From Thermoplasmata archaeon (GTDB taxonomy: Archaea; Thermoplasmatota; Thermoplasmata; WALJ01), in the NCBI GenBank assembly GCA_027006785.1, contig JALTFR010000042.1:30113-94112 (forward strand): a DNA stretch of 64,000 bases. The letters are read 5' to 3'. Positions 631-6,877 of this stretch are shown here, one piece after another. Below the pieces are notes generated by a model. The model did no database searches, was not told the origin of the DNA, and saw nothing but the letters and a program-made list of their open reading frames with translations. Numbering within the stretch: the stretch's first letter is position 1; every line of letters begins with the position of its first letter. The translations under genes and the position numbers were made by a program.

Positions 631-661
631 CCTTTGAGTTTGAGAAAGAATAGGTTTATAT

Positions 662-3181
662 ATGGATGTTGCATTGCTTTTAAAAGGTGAGTGTATGATA
701 TATCATGAAGATGAATTTACTAAAATACCTTTTGACAATAGGGCAAAGGAGAGACTGAAACATATATACTCTATCTTATATTATCTTGAAAGAGGATATT
801 CCTATCGGAAATCTATCAAAGAAACACTGAAGAGATTTCCTAGAGTGCACAACGAGCCCACAATAGAATCAAAAGTTACGACAGAAATAGGTCTCAAAAA
901 AGAGAGTTTTATGGAGCTATACAAAAAGGGAGAGCTTTTGGACTACCTAATATCAAAAAATAACTTGAATGAACATGACGCCCAAATTTTTGCAGAGCTT
1001 TTGAGAGGGCATCGAATAAGAACTGATAAAAAATATTATGAGCAAAGTGCGGGAATGAACATAGAAAAGATCCTCAAACTGTGGAAAGATTCTCTAGAAA
1101 AGCAACCTGAAGGGGTACACTTTAAAACCTATTCGAGATATGCCAAAATTAAGAAAATGAAAGAAGAAGTGAGAGACTTTGTTTATGATCCTACAGAGGA
1201 AAACTTCATAAAATTCTGGAACGAAAAAGACATATATGCTGCTCAGAGGGTTGCATCTGCGCGAAATGTGTGGGATTCAAACAATTCTGAAATTTTGGTT
1301 AGAACCCTGTCTGAAATGCTGGATAGCGAAGAATTCAAAGAAGAATGGGTTGAAAATGTTAAAAATGCCCGTAAAGTTTTGTGGGAACTTTTTGGATTAT
1401 TGCATATCGAAAAGGTTCCTCCAATAAACTCATGTACTGAAAACGGACTGGAATTTTTTGGATACAGGGTTAAACAAGACTATAAAGATTTACTATCAAA
1501 ATTCAATGAATTCAAAGATGATGTTTATATGGAAAATACTGGTCACATAACCGCAGGAAAGGACTATGAAATTCCAATAAACTTGGAGATTGACCAACTC
1601 TTCAATGTGATAGATAAGGTAAAAGAGTCTGATCTGGAAAAGGCAGATACAGAAGAGGAAAGATTGCTATATGAGGCCGTTCTTAGGGCCAAAAAAGAAA
1701 TGGGATTGATATCTGAGACAGAAAAAGAGGATGAACACTATTTTTGGTTGAATGCGGACCCATCCAGATGGACAGTTGAAGAGATTCGTAACGGAGATGT
1801 GGTAACATACACTTCACATACCAAAAATGGAAACAAAAGGCACATGTATTCTGCGTTTCAGAAGGCTAAAAAAGGAGATAAGGTGATATTCTACGAGACC
1901 AGCCCTCACAGAAAGGTTGTGGCCCTGGGTATTGTTGAAAAAGGTCTGCACGAAGATTATGATGAAGAACATGGTGAAAATACAGAGGTAATTTCTATAA
2001 GATTTCTCCGAGATTTAGGTCCTATTGACAGAGAAGAATTAAAGACCGTTCCAGAATTGAGAGATTTTTTTCCATTGAAAAAAGGCGTACAAGGAAGCCT
2101 CTTTGAAATGACGGAGAGTGAATTCCATGCCATACTGAATTTCGCAGATGCTTATGAGAAAACAGAAAGGGCCTCGGGTTTGAAATGGAATGATTTAAAG
2201 CCTGTGATTAATCACCTTAATGATGAGAGATTTGAGATTGAAGGTGCGCTTTACTTCCCTTATAACATAAAGGAAGAACTTGAATTACGGATTGGTTCGG
2301 CCATCTCATCTGGAAAACACATAATCCTCATCGGACCGCCGGGAACCGGAAAATCCAAGCTTGCGAAGATGGTGTGTGAACACTACAAAGGTAAAGAAAA
2401 ATACATTATGAGCACTGCTAACTCAGATTGGTCCACCTTTGATACCATTGGAGGATACTTCCCAAGTTCTGATGGAAAACTGGAATTCAAGACCGGCATA
2501 TTCCTGAAATGTTTCCGTGACGAGGAAGGCAATGCAGATAACAAATGGCTGATAATAGATGAAATAAACAGGGCAGATATAGACAAAGCTTTTGGCTCTC
2601 TTTTCTCGGCCCTTACTGGAGATAACATAACACTGCCCTTTGAGATGAATGGAAAGCCGGTTAAAGTTATCGGAAACCCGGATGCTGAGATACCAGATAC
2701 ACCCAACTGTTTTGTGATTCCTGAAGATTGGAGGATAATAGCAACGATGAATACCTTCGATAAGTCCTCGCTCTATGAGATGAGCTATGCGTTCATGAGG
2801 CGCTTTGCTTTCATACCTGTTGGTGTGCCTGATGAGATCAGAGAGGATGATATTCGAAGGTATCTTAAATCCTGGAACTGCGAGAATGAAAGAATAGACA
2901 AAAAGAAACTTCTTGATATATGGCAGTCTGTCAATAAGATAAGAAAGATAGGTCCTGCCATCGTAAAAGATATATGTGAATTTGTAATCCGCACAGGTGA
3001 TGATTATGCCAGTGCAATTATCATGTATGTTCTCCCTCAGTTTGAGGGCTTGTCTGATGAAAAAATAATTTCGTTTATGAAAGACATAAGGGAAATCACC
3101 GGAGAGGCTGGGGCGGATAAAATAGAAAAATTCTCCTATGATTTCTTCTCGATTGAAAGGGTCGCTGAGAAGGAGTCCTGA
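662..3181 (+). CDS. mcrB: McrB-like GTPase (AAA+ of McrB family) with N-terminal uncharacterized ~340-aa domain and central EVE/PUA-like domain
   Basis: Walker A 'LIGPPGTGKSKLA'; McrB signatures 'IIDEINRADI' and 'ATMNTFDKS...FMRRFAF' (compare MNTADRS / RRRF); EVE-like 'KKGDKVIFYETSP...GSLFEMTESEFHAI'; 4-nt gap to McrC. Confidence 0.75.
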   Translation: MDVALLLKGECMIYHEDEFTKIPFDNRAKERLKHIYSILYYLERGYSYRKSIKETLKRFPRVHNEPTIESKVTTEIGLKKESFMELYKKGELLDYLISKNNLNEHDAQIFAELLRGHRIRTDKKYYEQSAGMNIEKILKLWKDSLEKQPEGVHFKTYSRYAKIKKMKEEVRDFVYDPTEENFIKFWNEKDIYAAQRVASARNVWDSNNSEILVRTLSEMLDSEEFKEEWVENVKNARKVLWELFGLLHIEKVPPINSCTENGLEFFGYRVKQDYKDLLSKFNEFKDDVYMENTGHITAGKDYEIPINLEIDQLFNVIDKVKESDLEKADTEEERLLYEAVLRAKKEMGLISETEKEDEHYFWLNADPSRWTVEEIRNGDVVTYTSHTKNGNKRHMYSAFQKAKKGDKVIFYETSPHRKVVALGIVEKGLHEDYDEEHGENTEVISIRFLRDLGPIDREELKTVPELRDFFPLKKGVQGSLFEMTESEFHAILNFADAYEKTERASGLKWNDLKPVINHLNDERFEIEGALYFPYNIKEELELRIGSAISSGKHIILIGPPGTGKSKLAKMVCEHYKGKEKYIMSTANSDWSTFDTIGGYFPSSDGKLEFKTGIFLKCFRDEEGNADNKWLIIDEINRADIDKAFGSLFSALTGDNITLPFEMNGKPVKVIGNPDAEIPDTPNCFVIPEDWRIIATMNTFDKSSLYEMSYAFMRRFAFIPVGVPDEIREDDIRRYLKSWNCENERIDKKKLLDIWQSVNKIRKIGPAIVKDICEFVIRTGDDYASAIIMYVLPQFEGLSDEKIISFMKDIREITGEAGADKIEKFSYDFFSIERVAEKES

Positions 3182-3182
3182 T

Positions 3183-4541
3183 ATGCCGGCAAAAGTCAAT
3201 GAAGAAACCATACTGAATGAAATCTCGGCAGATATCCCGCACTATCTTAGAAATGGAAGGATAGATGAGGTTATGAAATCTGCCGCAGAAGCGGATTTGA
3301 ACATAAAGGACCTGGACAGGCTTTTGAGGATACACTTCGTTCTTACAGAAAAGGTGAAAGAGTTCTCGGAAAAACTCGAAGGAAGGATAAGAAGAATAAA
3401 AACAACCGTCAGTTCACACAAGAGTGAATATCGAGGGCAGGTGAGAGGGCGCATATCATGGAAAGATACTTTTTCCAGAAGAATGGCCACAAATCCGCTG
3501 GATAAGACACTTTTCATGTGCGTTGAAAGGGAAAGGGAATATAATATCCCTGAAAACCTTGTGCTTAAACGAATTCTCCAGATAATCCACGATATAGTCT
3601 ATTCTGACCTGAAACCCGCCATAGACGGAAGATATAACTGGGTTGATATCTGGAGTGATGAAAAAGGTGTGAAAGAGGTTCTAAATTCGATTTATTTTAA
3701 GAATATATATCTGAAAAGGGTTTCTCTGGAGGACCTCCACATAACTGAGAACATGATTCAAAGGGCCAAAAAATCCAGGCAACCGCTTTATCGAGATGCT
3801 GCATATCTTCTGGAAAGGTACCGAAAGATAACAGGATATAACATAGACGAATCTGAAGCCCGTGAGCTCTTGAAGAACACATTCATAAAGCCTGAGAAAA
3901 CAGAGGAGCTTTTTGAGCTGTATTGGATAATAAAAATTATGAACTCCTTCGGAAAGGAAATCTGGAAGAAGCCCATTATTGAAAAAGACAACGATTCAGT
4001 CATTGCTGAAGGAATGTTTGGAGATTTCAGGTATGTTATTTATCACAACTCCACAGGCAGCTTTCATTTTCATGAAAAACTTCCTGATGACAATGATGAT
4101 CTTGCAAAAATCAATAAAGCATATCCGTTTTTGGCGAGAGAGGCGAAAGTTGTGGAAAAACTGAACGGGATGGTGGGTGTGGATGAAAATAGTCTCTGGG
4201 GTGGTCGCCCAGATATAGTGATAGAAAAATATCACAAAAACAGTGACGATCTCGTTTCTGTCTTCATAGCTGAAGTGAAATACACAAACAATAAACGCTA
4301 TGCGATTGAAGGACTGAAGGAACTTCTGGAATATCTGGCTTTTATAAAGAAAAATGAAGAATATCTGGAAAAGTTCAATTCGCTTTTTGAAGGACTTGAA
4401 AAGGTTAAAGGCGGTCTTTTCACAGACCAGATAGACAAATTTTCCATTTCTGAAGATGAGAAAATCTTCCACATCATGTTCGGGGATTCAGAAGATAAGA
4501 TACGAAAAAGGATTGTTGAACCTACGCCGGATATGGAATAG
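3183..4541 (+). CDS. mcrC: McrC-like nuclease subunit (N-terminal McrC domain with 'RGRISW' motif; C-terminal PD-(D/E)xK nuclease)
   Basis: ATG 1 nt after mcrB stop; 'YRGQVRGRISW'; C-terminal 'GRPDIVIEKY...FIAEVKY' PD..ExK motif. Confidence 0.7.
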   Translation: MPAKVNEETILNEISADIPHYLRNGRIDEVMKSAAEADLNIKDLDRLLRIHFVLTEKVKEFSEKLEGRIRRIKTTVSSHKSEYRGQVRGRISWKDTFSRRMATNPLDKTLFMCVEREREYNIPENLVLKRILQIIHDIVYSDLKPAIDGRYNWVDIWSDEKGVKEVLNSIYFKNIYLKRVSLEDLHITENMIQRAKKSRQPLYRDAAYLLERYRKITGYNIDESEARELLKNTFIKPEKTEELFELYWIIKIMNSFGKEIWKKPIIEKDNDSVIAEGMFGDFRYVIYHNSTGSFHFHEKLPDDNDDLAKINKAYPFLAREAKVVEKLNGMVGVDENSLWGGRPDIVIEKYHKNSDDLVSVFIAEVKYTNNKRYAIEGLKELLEYLAFIKKNEEYLEKFNSLFEGLEKVKGGLFTDQIDKFSISEDEKIFHIMFGDSEDKIRKRIVEPTPDME

Positions 4542-4862
4542 CTTCACTTAAATTTGATTCTTTACCTCTCTTCACCATCCTCTACACCTATCCATGCTCT
4601 CCCCTAACCCATTTCCTTTCCCTTCAGTTTTTCGATCCAGTGGAGGCTCTTCTCCATATCCCCTTTCCTTCCCATCTCCCTGAACATCTCAAGGCTTTCC
4701 TGCAGGTACTCCATGCCCTGCTCTCCCCCTGTGACGATGCCTTTCAGCCTGAGGTACCATCCCTGCCTCTCCCGAGATGAAAAGCGTGCGCCCATGCCCG
4801 CCTTCGGCATCCCTGAGGAGTGAATCCAGTTTCCCGAGCTCTGCCCCCCGGTCCGCAATGCC

Positions 4863-5149: not shown

Positions 5150-6877
5150 ATGAAAATAAATACATTTTCAATAAAAAACTATAGATCAATCGTTGATAAA
5201 CAAGAGATAACTCTAAAAGATTTATCTATAATTATAGGTCCTAATAACGAAGGAAAATCTAACATATTAAACGCAATTACTTCTGCATTATCTATCTTAA
5301 AATCGTATGAGTATTCTTTCACCCACCTACTACGAAGATATTATCGAAAAATAGATCGTGATGAGCATACATCTTCTAGTTATGAAAGGACATCTTCTTA
5401 TAAGTGGGAGCGGGATTTTCCAATAAAGATGCAAGGCGAGAATAAGGATGGTAAGACGGTCTTCGAAGTCGTTTTTGATTTTACAAACGAAGAACTGAAA
5501 GATTTGAATAAATTAACTGGACTGAATCTCAATTACGATATTATTTTCACTTTGGAATTAGGAAAAGACTCAGAAAATATTAGTATAAATTATCCCGCAA
5601 ATCGTCGAATAAATTTGAACAAACGAAAAATAAAAATTTTAGAATATGTATCTCAACACATTGCTATTGAATATATCGGTTCTGTAAGAACTGCAGAAAG
5701 GACTGCTGACTTGATTGATAGTCTTATTAGAAGAGAACTTAATCAATTGGAATATAAAGCCGAATATGAACGGCTCTTAAAACGCTTAGAAAAAATGCAA
5801 GAACCCGTGTTAAAGAAAATATCAAAAGAGGTTAGCAAAAGCATTAAACAATTTTTGCCAAATGTGAAAAAGGTAGAAGTAACTTCTGTTGACCGCGTGA
5901 GGCGAATAATGCACGAATCATGTGAAGTTTATGTAGATGATGGAGATAAAACTCCGTTAGAATTAAAAGGTGATGGAATAAAGAGTCTGTTGGCCATATC
6001 ACTTATGCAACATCTTGCTAAGCAGAGGCATACTAACCAAGATATAGTGTTTGCTATTGAAGAGCCTAAAATTCATCTGCATCCCGATTCAATCCATAAA
6101 TTAAAAGAAGTTTTACTAGAGATATCTGAGCAATATCAAGTTATATTAACTACACATTCACCCATTTTTGTAGACAGAGGGCATCTTGATAGAAATATTC
6201 TTGTAACAAAAAATAAAATAAAAACGGTTCATGATATTTCTGAGATTAGAAACGAATTGGGCATCAGGGTTTCCGACAATTTGAAATCCGCCAGTCTAGT
6301 AATATTAACCGAAGGAGAAAACGATATTCAAATATTGAAATCGTGGTTGTTTGAAATGTCACCCAAGGTTAGAGATGCTTATGCCCGTGGGTTGTTTGCT
6401 TTCGCATCCATGGGTGGGTGTAAAAATCTTTCATATCAGGTAAACTTGCATCGGAATTTGATTTGCAGTGTATTGGTTTATCTGGATGCAGATTCTGACG
6501 GGAAATCTGCATACGAGAAAGCAAAAAGTGATGGTCTCCTTACAGATAAAGAAGTGTTCTTTCCTATTATCCGGTCATTCCGTGAAACGGAGATAGAAGA
6601 TTTAGTTAAAATTAGTATATATAAAAAAAATATTGAAGATAAATACGGGGTTAAATTGGAACGCGATATTTTCAAAAATAATAAAAATAAATGGTCTGTG
6701 AGAATTGGGGGGGTGTTTGAAAAGCAAGGAAAACTGTGGACTGGTGACATTGAGGCAGATGTAAAAAAAATAGTATGTGATGCAGTAGTAAGGGATGGTT
6801 TAAGAAGTCTAAAGCAGACTAACGCAGGTTCTATCAAAAATCTACAAAAAAGGATAGAAGAAGAATTAAATCTCTGA
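5150..6877 (+). CDS. OLD-family ATP-dependent nuclease (AAA_15/ABC-type ATPase + C-terminal TOPRIM); GajA-like, no helicase partner
   Basis: P-loop 'IIIGPNNEGKSNILNAI'; 'GDGIKSLLAISL'; Walker B 'IVFAIEEPKIHLHP'; H-loop 'ILTTHSP'; TOPRIM 'LVILTEGENDIQIL' and 'YLDADSDGKS'; SD tgagga upstream. Confidence 0.75.
   Translation: MKINTFSIKNYRSIVDKQEITLKDLSIIIGPNNEGKSNILNAITSALSILKSYEYSFTHLLRRYYRKIDRDEHTSSSYERTSSYKWERDFPIKMQGENKDGKTVFEVVFDFTNEELKDLNKLTGLNLNYDIIFTLELGKDSENISINYPANRRINLNKRKIKILEYVSQHIAIEYIGSVRTAERTADLIDSLIRRELNQLEYKAEYERLLKRLEKMQEPVLKKISKEVSKSIKQFLPNVKKVEVTSVDRVRRIMHESCEVYVDDGDKTPLELKGDGIKSLLAISLMQHLAKQRHTNQDIVFAIEEPKIHLHPDSIHKLKEVLLEISEQYQVILTTHSPIFVDRGHLDRNILVTKNKIKTVHDISEIRNELGIRVSDNLKSASLVILTEGENDIQILKSWLFEMSPKVRDAYARGLFAFASMGGCKNLSYQVNLHRNLICSVLVYLDADSDGKSAYEKAKSDGLLTDKEVFFPIIRSFRETEIEDLVKISIYKKNIEDKYGVKLERDIFKNNKNKWSVRIGGVFEKQGKLWTGDIEADVKKIVCDAVVRDGLRSLKQTNAGSIKNLQKRIEEELNL

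What the first reader, a model, noticed from the sequence alone, without database searches (positions are those of the whole stretch)
662..1720. Uncharacterised ~340-aa N-terminal domain on the McrB-like protein, ahead of an EVE/PUA-like module
Residues 1 to about 345 ('...KETLKRFPRVHNEPTIESKV...FIKFWNEKDIYAAQRVASARNVWDS...') match no motif I recognise. They are followed by a segment with EVE-like hallmarks (KKGDKVIFYETSP...; GSLFEMTESEFHAI) and then the GTPase. Known McrB homologues carry one reader domain, so two stacked N-terminal modules suggest a novel specificity or regulatory domain.
Basis: inference. Interest (0 to 1): 0.5.

Follow-up and report, generated by a model that had tools for sequence, protein, structure and literature searches.

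The report
Dead DNA-glycosylase-like reader on archaeal McrB
The unexplained front third of this archaeal restriction-enzyme gene encodes two separate domains, a small DNA-binding-like helical domain and a fold resembling a DNA-repair glycosylase that lacks its usual catalytic aspartate, which probably serve as extra sensors for chemically modified virus DNA, an idea first reported for bacteria in 2025.

Summary
ORF 662-3181 is an McrB-type GTPase with an EVE domain, and nothing upstream of the EVE matches Pfam, NCBIfam, PADLOC, PHROGs or PDB sequences.

The ~340 aa are not one domain, and the gene most likely starts at ATG 695.
- Residues 12-117 are a rare ~105-aa helical domain. Seven relatives are known, and some are fused to an HNH nuclease instead.
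- Residues 132-346 are a ~215-aa all-helical module. It defines a family of about 157 clusters (50% identity), absent from Pfam. In all 83 members with a Walker A motif it lies upstream of that motif, and it is combined with zero to four PUA/EVE-type readers.

The helix-hairpin-helix is followed, at the canonical 20-residue spacing, by Pro-Ile-x-Asn instead of the catalytic Asp (Asn 85%, Asp 2%). The catalytic Lys position is not conserved.

Best reading: an inactivated glycosylase used as a base-flipping sensor, like the 'iEndoIII' sensor of END nucleases (2025 preprint, which mentions McrB fusions). I rate it a new variant of a known kind, of moderate interest.

The parts
655..690 (+). Likely expression signals for the true start: TTTATATAT (655-663, TATA-box-like) and GGTGA (686-690, Shine-Dalgarno-like), 4 nt before ATG 695
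   Evidence: Read directly from the sequence. Their function is inferred.
695..3181 (+). mcrB-like gene with corrected start (828 aa). Domain order: helical N-domain, glycosylase-like module, EVE, McrB GTPase.
   Evidence: Orthologues start at the equivalent Met. The identical 828-aa product is called in ENA assembly ERZ23495671.
695..1012 (+). N-terminal ~105-aa helical domain (residues 12-117 of ORF 662), HTH-like, probably DNA-binding
1055..1699 (+). ~215-aa all-helical module (residues 132-346 of ORF 662) with an HhH-GPD DNA-glycosylase-like fold, predicted to be catalytically inactive
1340..1456 (+). Helix-hairpin-helix followed by a Gly/Pro loop ending in Asn instead of Asp (EEWVENVKNA-RKVLWELFG-LLHIEKVPPIN-SCTENGLEF). 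Key codons: Lys238 at 1373-1375, invariant Glu242 at 1385-1387, Asn256 at 1427-1429.
   Evidence: DSSP of the model shows helices 216-221, 226-236 and 246-254 in Met12 numbering. Column counts over 100 sequences give Glu 100%, Pro 92%, and Asn 85% / Asp 2%. The hairpin-to-Asn spacing of 20 residues equals the hairpin-to-Asp spacing in Ogg2 sequences. hhalign pairs PPIN with the Ogg2 AIID motif, but at a probability of only 0.2%.
1742..2140 (+). EVE (PUA-like) modified-base reader domain. It lies within a 175-aa segment that is replaced by a 24-aa linker in the syntenic orthologue.
   Evidence: Pfam PF01878, E 2e-9, above the gathering score. In Met12 numbering, window residues 337-511 have no counterpart in L001.
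2318..3181 (+). McrB-type AAA+ GTPase. Walker A GPPGTGKS is at 2333-2356, Walker B LIIDEINR at 2549-2572, and the NxxD signature (MNTFDK) at 2747-2764.
   Evidence: Pfam AAA_5 (E 3e-17), NCBIfam McrB (E 1e-15), PDB 6hz4 and 6ut3.
3183..4541 (+). McrC-like partner (452 aa) with a PD...(E)VK nuclease motif (GGRPDIVI at 4200, AEVKY at 4269)
   Evidence: It is the conserved neighbour of the mcrB-like gene in L001, L005 and L006, at 41-49% identity, and the P-D-I...E-V-K motif is invariant. It has no Pfam or PDB sequence hit, so its identity as McrC is inferred.

Best explanation
The 5' third of this archaeal (Thermoplasmata-like) mcrB gene encodes two independent specificity-type modules upstream of the EVE domain.

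(1) Residues 12-117 form a small helical, helix-turn-helix-like domain that probably binds DNA.

(2) Residues 132-346 form a highly diverged member of the HhH-GPD DNA-glycosylase fold, most like Ogg2/AGOG 8-oxoguanine glycosylases. The canonical catalytic Asp is replaced by Asn, and the catalytic Lys position is not conserved across the family.

The glycosylase scaffold has most likely been co-opted as a non-catalytic sensor that flips out and inspects unusual (modified or hypermodified) bases. Together with the EVE reader it would load the McrB GTPase hexamer onto modified foreign DNA. GTP-driven translocation would then activate the McrC-like PD-(D/E)xK nuclease to cut.

Shown:
- the domain boundaries
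- the family and its near-exclusive association with McrB GTPases
- the confident all-helical model
- the fold-level resemblance
- the residue conservation pattern

Inferred:
- the residue equivalence Asn = catalytic Asp
- loss of catalysis
- base flipping
- the type of modification sensed
- cooperation with EVE
For: Family and context:
- The module is a discrete, mobile unit. In P0001-3 it starts at residue 1.
- In 150 representatives it lies at varied positions. It is upstream of the Walker A motif in all 83 proteins that have one, and 78 of the 86 proteins of 500 aa or more have a Walker A.
- A Pfam census of 57 members gives AAA_5 in 44, EVE in 17, MrcB_N in 3 and DpnI_C in 2. It therefore travels with known modified-DNA readers in the position where McrB specificity domains sit.
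- Its reader partners are swapped or absent: no EVE in the syntenic orthologue, another PUA-like domain in P0007, and two EVE domains plus others in L005 and L006.

Fold:
- AF2 pLDDT is 91-98 over the module.
- Foldseek independently ranks 14 MutY, EndoIII or MagIII chains first.

Active site:
- There is a helix, a 4-residue hairpin and a helix. Exactly 20 residues after the hairpin comes (F/Y)G-x-LHIE-xx-P-I-x-N. The same spacing ends in the catalytic Asp in SsoOgg, MjaOgg and TM1821.
- That column is Asn 85, Thr 7, Ser 5, Asp 2 out of 100. The Lys-equivalent column is Asn 25, Lys 16, Ser 11, Gly 11.
- hhalign independently pairs PPIN with AIID, Tyr274 with the Ogg2 'kkY' motif, and EID with 'eLDL'.

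Precedent:
- END nucleases use an inactivated EndoIII/Ogg-like domain as a sensor of hypermodified bases. The same sensor was reported fused to a NucS-like nuclease and to an McrB-like GTPase (PMC12191111).

Setting:
- The gene lies in a low-GC defence islet next to an OLD-family nuclease.
Against: - None of 41 members hits any glycosylase Pfam family even at E<=10.
- I had no model coordinates, so Asn = catalytic Asp rests on spacing, secondary structure and a non-significant profile alignment.
- A second register (helix 226-236 as HhH helix 1) cannot be excluded. In that register the Asp helix would be missing rather than mutated.
- The family keeps an invariant Glu (Glu242) and near-invariant Glu309/Asp311. 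These could form a non-canonical active site.
- The window protein itself has Lys at the Lys-equivalent position.
- No experiment exists for any family member.
Confidence: 0.55

Rival explanations
1. The module is a catalytically active, non-canonical DNA glycosylase. It would excise a modified base from invading DNA using the invariant Glu242 and/or Glu309/Asp311 (and Lys238 in this protein). The resulting abasic sites would either be toxic to the virus themselves or mark the DNA for McrBC cleavage.
For: - The fold is that of DNA glycosylases.
- One Glu is invariant in 100 of 100 sequences, and an E-I-D motif is 95% / 89% conserved.
- The window protein has Lys at the position equivalent to the Ogg2 catalytic Lys.
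- Glycosylases are known antiviral effectors (Brig1, cited in PMC12191111).
- From established knowledge, monofunctional HhH enzymes such as MutY use a Glu.
Against: - The residue at the canonical Asp position is Asn in 85% and Asp in only 2% of members.
- Lys is present in only 16%.
- From established knowledge, Asp-to-Asn substitutions strongly impair or abolish catalysis in hOGG1, MutY and EndoIII and are used to trap substrates.
- The EID motif has a structural counterpart (eLDL) in Ogg2 that is not catalytic.
- The module is almost always coupled to a GTPase-nuclease machine that already supplies the killing activity.
Confidence: 0.15
2. The glycosylase resemblance is coincidental or irrelevant. 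The helical module would be a structural or regulatory element that does not read bases, for example an oligomerisation, auto-inhibition or partner-docking domain that controls the McrB hexamer or recruits McrC.
For: - The structural scores are modest and there is no sequence-profile support.
- A subgroup of haloarchaeal proteins has the module without any GTPase.
- Some proteins have two copies.
Against: - Two different structure-comparison programs converge on one superfamily.
- The HhH / Gly-Pro loop spacing matches it exactly.
- The module occupies the variable N-terminal slot used by specificity domains and is shuffled with EVE, PUA, MrcB_N and DpnI_C readers.
- It is not needed for the McrB-McrC interaction in characterised systems, where McrC binds the GTPase ring (PMC11090510 introduction).
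Confidence: 0.2

Closest known systems
iEndoIII sensor domain of END nucleases (END-PaCF1, END-Mag; bioRxiv 2025, PMC12191111)
   Same: Both are an HhH DNA-glycosylase fold (EndoIII/Ogg-like) without the canonical catalytic residues. Both are used as the sensing module of a modification-dependent restriction enzyme. That paper lists fusions to an McrB-like GTPase. END-Mag resembles archaeal Ogg enzymes, as does this module.
   Different: - END domains are detectable by HHpred against EndoIII and PF21790. This family gives no Pfam hit at E<=10 and only 0.2% hhalign probability to Ogg2.
- Here the module is N-terminal and stacked with an EVE domain and an extra HTH-like domain.
- All six genome loci recovered, and the two members with named organisms, are archaeal (Thermoplasmata, Halobacteria, Thermococcus, Pyrohabitans).
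- Direct homology to the END C-terminal domain could not be tested because no sequence was available.
Ogg2 / AGOG archaeal 8-oxoguanine DNA glycosylases (TM1821 3N0U, MjaOgg 3FHF, SsoOgg 3FHG, Pa-AGOG 1XQP)
   Same: These are the best structural matches. They share the order of elements: helix-hairpin-helix, then a 20-residue spacer to the Asp position, then a Tyr helix, then an (E/L)-(I/L)-D helix.
   Different: - Asp is replaced by Asn, and the Lys is not conserved.
- No sequence-profile similarity is detectable.
- The module is never the whole of a complete protein here; it is fused to McrB GTPases or other domains.
- It sits in defence islands rather than a repair context.
EVE-McrB and other multi-reader McrBC type IV restriction systems (Bell et al. 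2020, PMC7641849; Bell et al. 2024, PMC11090510)
   Same: The same GTPase with the NxxD signature, an adjacent nuclease partner, an EVE reader N-terminal to the GTPase, and extra N-terminal domains.
   Different: Neither census describes this helical module or the small N-terminal domain. The McrC-like partner here is too diverged to hit DUF2357/McrC models.
Winged-helix / HTH modification sensors fused to HNH or PD-(D/E)xK nucleases (DpnI, HhiV4I; PMC11037411)
   Same: The small N-terminal domain is helical and HTH-like. Like those sensors, it is found fused directly to an HNH nuclease.

Membership tests
McrB (GTPase subunit of McrBC type IV restriction) | AAA+ GTPase domain with Walker A, Walker B and the Nx(x)xD signature | tested here: met
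   Pfam AAA_5 E 3e-17. NCBIfam McrB E 1e-15, though far below that equivalog model's cut-off. PDB E. coli McrB 6hz4 E 1e-14. Motifs GPPGTGKS, LIIDEINR and MNTFD are present.
McrB (GTPase subunit of McrBC type IV restriction) | Operon partner McrC: DUF2357 N-domain plus PD-(D/E)xK nuclease | tested here: inconclusive
   A 452-aa gene starts 2 nt after the mcrB stop and is conserved next to mcrB in L001, L005 and L006. The P-D-I...E-V-K motif is invariant. There is no Pfam or PDB sequence hit, even with a 3-sequence profile.
EVE / PUA-like modified-base readers | Match to the EVE profile above the curated threshold | tested here: met
   PF01878, residues 361-493, 38 bits against a cut-off of 23.
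HhH-GPD DNA glycosylase superfamily | Characteristic all-helical fold containing a helix-hairpin-helix | tested here: met
HhH-GPD DNA glycosylase superfamily | Sequence-profile membership (PF00730 HhH-GPD, PF22175 Ogg-HhH, PF09171 AGOG, PF21790 OGG-like) | tested here: not met
   No glycosylase family appears among the hits of 41 members at E<=10. hhalign against 87 PF22175 proteins gives a probability of 0.2%.
HhH-GPD DNA glycosylase superfamily | Conserved catalytic Asp after the Gly/Pro-rich loop, about 20 residues after the hairpin | tested here: not met
   The spacing and the Pro are conserved, but the residue is Asn 85, Thr 7, Ser 5, Asp 2 out of 100. The equivalence is inferred from spacing and from the hhalign pairing.
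HhH-GPD DNA glycosylase superfamily | Catalytic Lys at the start of HhH helix 2 (bifunctional members only) | tested here: not met
   The column is Asn 25, Lys 16, Ser 11, Gly 11. The window protein does have Lys there.
END nucleases / iEndoIII sensor | Glycosylase-fold domain lacking catalytic residues, fused to a nuclease or to an McrB-like GTPase | tested here: met
   Fold. Missing Asp and Lys. Fusion to the McrB GTPase. Definition taken from PMC12191111. The catalytic-residue equivalence is inferred.
END nucleases / iEndoIII sensor | Sequence homology to the END-PaCF1 or END-Mag C-terminal domain | not tested
   No END sequence was available in the tools, and the paper's supplements are not held.
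END nucleases / iEndoIII sensor | Restriction of phages with hypermodified DNA | not testable with these tools
   This needs plaque assays.
Helix-turn-helix DNA-binding domains (for the N-terminal ~105 aa) | Recognisable HTH fold or profile | tested here: inconclusive

The most novel reading that the evidence does not exclude
The module would found a previously unrecognised 'HhH-GP-Asn' family, seen so far mainly in archaea. It would be independent of the bacterial END iEndoIII domains. It would either read archaeal-virus-specific DNA modifications or retain a non-canonical glycosylase chemistry built on the invariant Glu. The ~105-aa N-terminal domain would be a second new modification or sequence sensor shared between McrB and HNH type IV enzymes.
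Probability: 0.35. Interest if true: 0.6.

Novelty: new variant of a known kind. Interest (0 to 1): 0.45.

Why it matters
Type IV restriction enzymes are defined by what their reader domains recognise. This adds a glycosylase-derived reader family of about 157 clusters that no domain library captures. It also extends the recent 'dead glycosylase as sensor of hypermodified DNA' idea from bacterial END nucleases to archaeal McrBC systems.

The stack of an HTH-like domain, a dead glycosylase and an EVE domain on one motor suggests combinatorial broadening of target range. These domains could also be mined as tools for detecting modified bases.

In practical terms, hundreds of proteins labelled 'AAA family ATPase', 'MoxR-like ATPase' or 'hypothetical protein' can now be given a testable domain annotation.

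Tried and rejected
- **Sequence libraries.** I searched Pfam at E<=10 (whole region, halves, 41 family members, short stand-alone members), NCBIfam, PADLOC, PHROGs and PDB sequences with a single sequence and a profile. There were no meaningful hits. The weak PADLOC GajB and Pfam MTR4/RNR hits were rejected as chance.
- **Alternative start.** I considered that residues 1-131 might be non-coding or a mis-called start, because three homologues begin at the module. I rejected this because the N-domain is conserved in P0006, P0007 and P0151-4 at 43-56% identity.
- **Coiled-coil or CoCoNuT-type McrB.** Rejected. The GTPase has NxxD rather than NxD, and the model is globular (PMC11090510).
- **hhalign against Ogg2.** I ran the module against an Ogg2 profile built from 87 proteins, retrieved with a remembered SsoOgg fragment. 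The result was not significant and I used it only for register.
- **hhalign of the haloarchaeal C-domain against the module.** Probability was 2.7%, which is suggestive only.
- **Fold libraries.** The AFDB50 fold library was unavailable.
- **END sequences.** The supplements of the END paper are not held.
- **McrC-like protein.** A profile search against PDB and Pfam found nothing.
Full report
**What is there**

The window opens with the 3' end of thiI. A low-GC stretch (0.32-0.42, against about 0.5 in the flanks) then runs to cysS. The first gene in it is ORF 662-3181 (+).

Pfam places an EVE domain at residues 361-493 and an AAA_5 domain at 553-715. NCBIfam's McrB model and the solved E. coli and T. 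gammatolerans McrB structures match the C-terminal half. Walker A, Walker B and the NxxD signature are all present.

The next gene (3183-4541) has no family hit. It is nevertheless the conserved neighbour of the mcrB-like gene in three related loci, and it keeps an invariant P-D-I...E-V-K nuclease motif. I therefore treat it as a diverged McrC.

Nothing upstream of the EVE domain matches Pfam, NCBIfam, PADLOC, PHROGs or PDB sequences. The raw observation is correct.

**Corrections to the anatomy**

The gene most likely starts at ATG 695, not 662.
- Orthologues begin at the equivalent Met.
- GGTGA lies 4 nt upstream, and ATG 662 sits inside a TTTATATAT element.
- An independent gene call in a public metagenome assembly gives exactly the 828-aa product.

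The '340-aa domain' is two units.
- A word-seeded search of 5.8 billion proteins with residues 1-353 found only three relatives. All of them cover only residues ~134-335, and in all of them that segment starts at residue 1.
- The first ~105 residues recur only in P0006 and P0007 and in four short metagenomic proteins.
- In locus L007 this small domain is followed by an HNH nuclease, after a frameshift in the assembly. P0151 and P0152 break off just as an HNH-type segment begins.

**The module family**

An exhaustive HMMER profile search of 1.84 billion cluster representatives found 157 proteins at E<=1e-3 and 122 at E<=1e-10.
- In all 83 proteins that have a Walker A motif, the module lies upstream of it.
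- 78 of the 86 proteins of 500 aa or more have a Walker A.
- Five proteins have two module copies.
- A Pfam census of 57 members gives AAA_5 in 44, EVE in 17, MrcB_N in 3 and DpnI_C in 2. None of them has any hit on the module itself.
- Sources label these proteins 'hypothetical protein', 'AAA family ATPase', 'MoxR-like ATPase' or 'McrB'.

All six genome loci recovered are archaeal: Thermoplasmata, haloarchaeal plasmids and chromosomes, and Pyrohabitans. The two members with named organisms, from Thermococcus and Haloarchaeobius, are archaeal as well.

Domain shuffling around the module is plain.
- The syntenic Thermoplasmata orthologue (L001) has the N-domain and the module but no EVE. In Met12 numbering, window residues 337-511 are replaced there by a 24-aa linker.
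- P0007 carries a different PUA-like domain.
- The Halorubrum and Haloferax proteins carry a PUA-like domain, the module, another reader and two EVE domains ahead of a closely related GTPase.

It had already been contradicted by Bell et al. 2020.

**Fold**

I modelled residues 12-353 with a 41-sequence alignment. The module has pLDDT 91-98 and about twelve helices. The N-domain was uncertain in this model.

- Ten HhH-GPD glycosylases are among the top 45 hits.
- They are the only hits that combine long alignments with low rmsd.

Foldseek ranks 14 MutY, EndoIII or MagIII chains first, although none is significant (E>=0.5).

Sequence methods see nothing. No glycosylase Pfam family appears for 41 members at E<=10. 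hhalign against 87 Ogg2 proteins gives a probability of 0.2%. The assignment is therefore fold-level and of moderate strength.

**Active-site logic**

In the model, helix 216-221, a four-residue hairpin and helix 226-236 (Met12 numbering) form a helix-hairpin-helix. Next comes the loop LHIEKVPPIN and then helix 246-254.

Counting from the residue after the hairpin, the Asn is residue 20. In SsoOgg, MjaOgg and TM1821 the catalytic Asp is likewise residue 20 after the G-I-G hairpin. From memory, the same holds for EndoIII and MutY.

Over 100 family sequences:

| Position | Residue counts |
|---|---|
| Asp-equivalent | Asn 85, Thr 7, Ser 5, Asp 2 |
| Preceding Pro | 92% conserved |
| Lys-equivalent | Asn 25, Lys 16, Ser 11, Gly 11 (Lys in the window protein) |
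| Glu in HhH helix 2 | invariant |
| E-I-D motif | 95% and 89% conserved |

The non-significant hhalign alignment is collinear with this register. It pairs PPIN with AIID, a conserved Tyr with the Ogg2 'kkY', and EID with 'eLDL'.

The family therefore looks like 'HhH-GP-Asn'. From established knowledge, that substitution strongly impairs or abolishes catalysis in hOGG1, MutY and EndoIII while preserving lesion binding. I had no coordinates, so this equivalence is inferred, not shown.

**The small N-domain**

Its alternative fusion to an HNH nuclease is the classic reader-nuclease architecture of type IV enzymes. A DNA-binding or sensing role is therefore likely, but unproven.

**Comparison with the literature**

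The 2024 McrBC census (PMC11090510) and the 2020 EVE survey (PMC7641849) do not describe these domains.

The closest precedent is the 2025 preprint on END nucleases (PMC12191111). It describes an inactivated EndoIII/Ogg-like domain that senses diverse hypermodified bases. The authors note fusions of that sensor to a NucS-like nuclease and to an McrB-like GTPase. I could not test direct homology to their domains because no sequences were available.

**Verdict**

There are two domains and a shifted start, and stacking of N-terminal modules is common.

The larger module is most likely a catalytically dead glycosylase fold serving as an additional modified-base sensor on an EVE-McrBC type IV restriction system.

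- The concept is known as of 2025.
- This family's sequence divergence is new, as is its archaeal distribution so far, its 'GP-Asn' signature, its stacking with EVE, and the extra HTH-like domain shared with HNH enzymes.

I rate it a new variant of a known kind, of moderate interest.

Noticed in passing
window 4604-4858 (-): This is a remnant of a large ATPase/TPR regulator gene. It is 63% identical to the C-terminus of the intact 1044-aa gene in L001 and has host-like GC (0.49). It is stranded between the McrBC cassette and the OLD-family gene. In L001 the intact gene lies upstream of mcrB, so the cassette sits at a different position in the two genomes.
   Followed up: partly
window 5150-6877 (+): A solo OLD/GajA-like gene (ABC-type ATPase, weak TOPRIM match; PADLOC Old 1.6e-36, AriA 3.9e-32) lies in its own very low-GC cassette (0.32-0.37). 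No GajB-like or AriB-like partner is called next to it.
   Followed up: no
window 3183-4541 (+): The McrC-like partner has no detectable similarity to DUF2357/McrC models or to solved McrC, even as a three-sequence profile. It is nevertheless conserved beside this McrB subfamily, with an invariant PD...EVK motif. It is a very diverged McrC lineage.
   Followed up: partly
P0062, P0065-67, P0070, P0072, P0075-77, P0081, P0083, P0084 (e.g. Haloarchaeobius WP_435320815.1): These are 450-480-aa proteins (the one looked up is from Haloarchaeobius). They have the module but no GTPase. Instead they carry a ~250-aa C-terminal domain with no Pfam hit. hhalign of that domain against the module is collinear but weak (2.7%), so it may be a diverged second copy. 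Their genomic context was not examined.
   Followed up: partly
L007 4001-4592; P0151, P0152: The small N-terminal domain also occurs directly in front of an HNH endonuclease. In L007 the gene is interrupted by a frameshift or deletion in the metagenome assembly.
   Followed up: partly
L002 12646-16152 (-), L003 6117-9623 (-): On two haloarchaeal plasmids, the module-bearing McrBC pair lies next to a 1168-aa gene with a PLD-like N-terminal motif and an SNF2-type helicase. This resembles the SWI2/SNF2-nuclease system that Bell et al. 2020 linked to stand-alone EVE proteins.
   Followed up: no
L004 7968-10480; L006 11299-13272: In Pyrohabitans the mcrB homologue is split into two ORFs (readers, then GTPase) and lies near an integrase. 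In Haloferax a DUF262/GmrSD-like gene lies close by. Both are signs of mobile defence islands.
   Followed up: no
P0004, P0032, P0041, P0105, P0148: These five family members give two separate matches to the module profile. The second match is full-length in P0004 and P0032 and partial in the other three.
   Followed up: no
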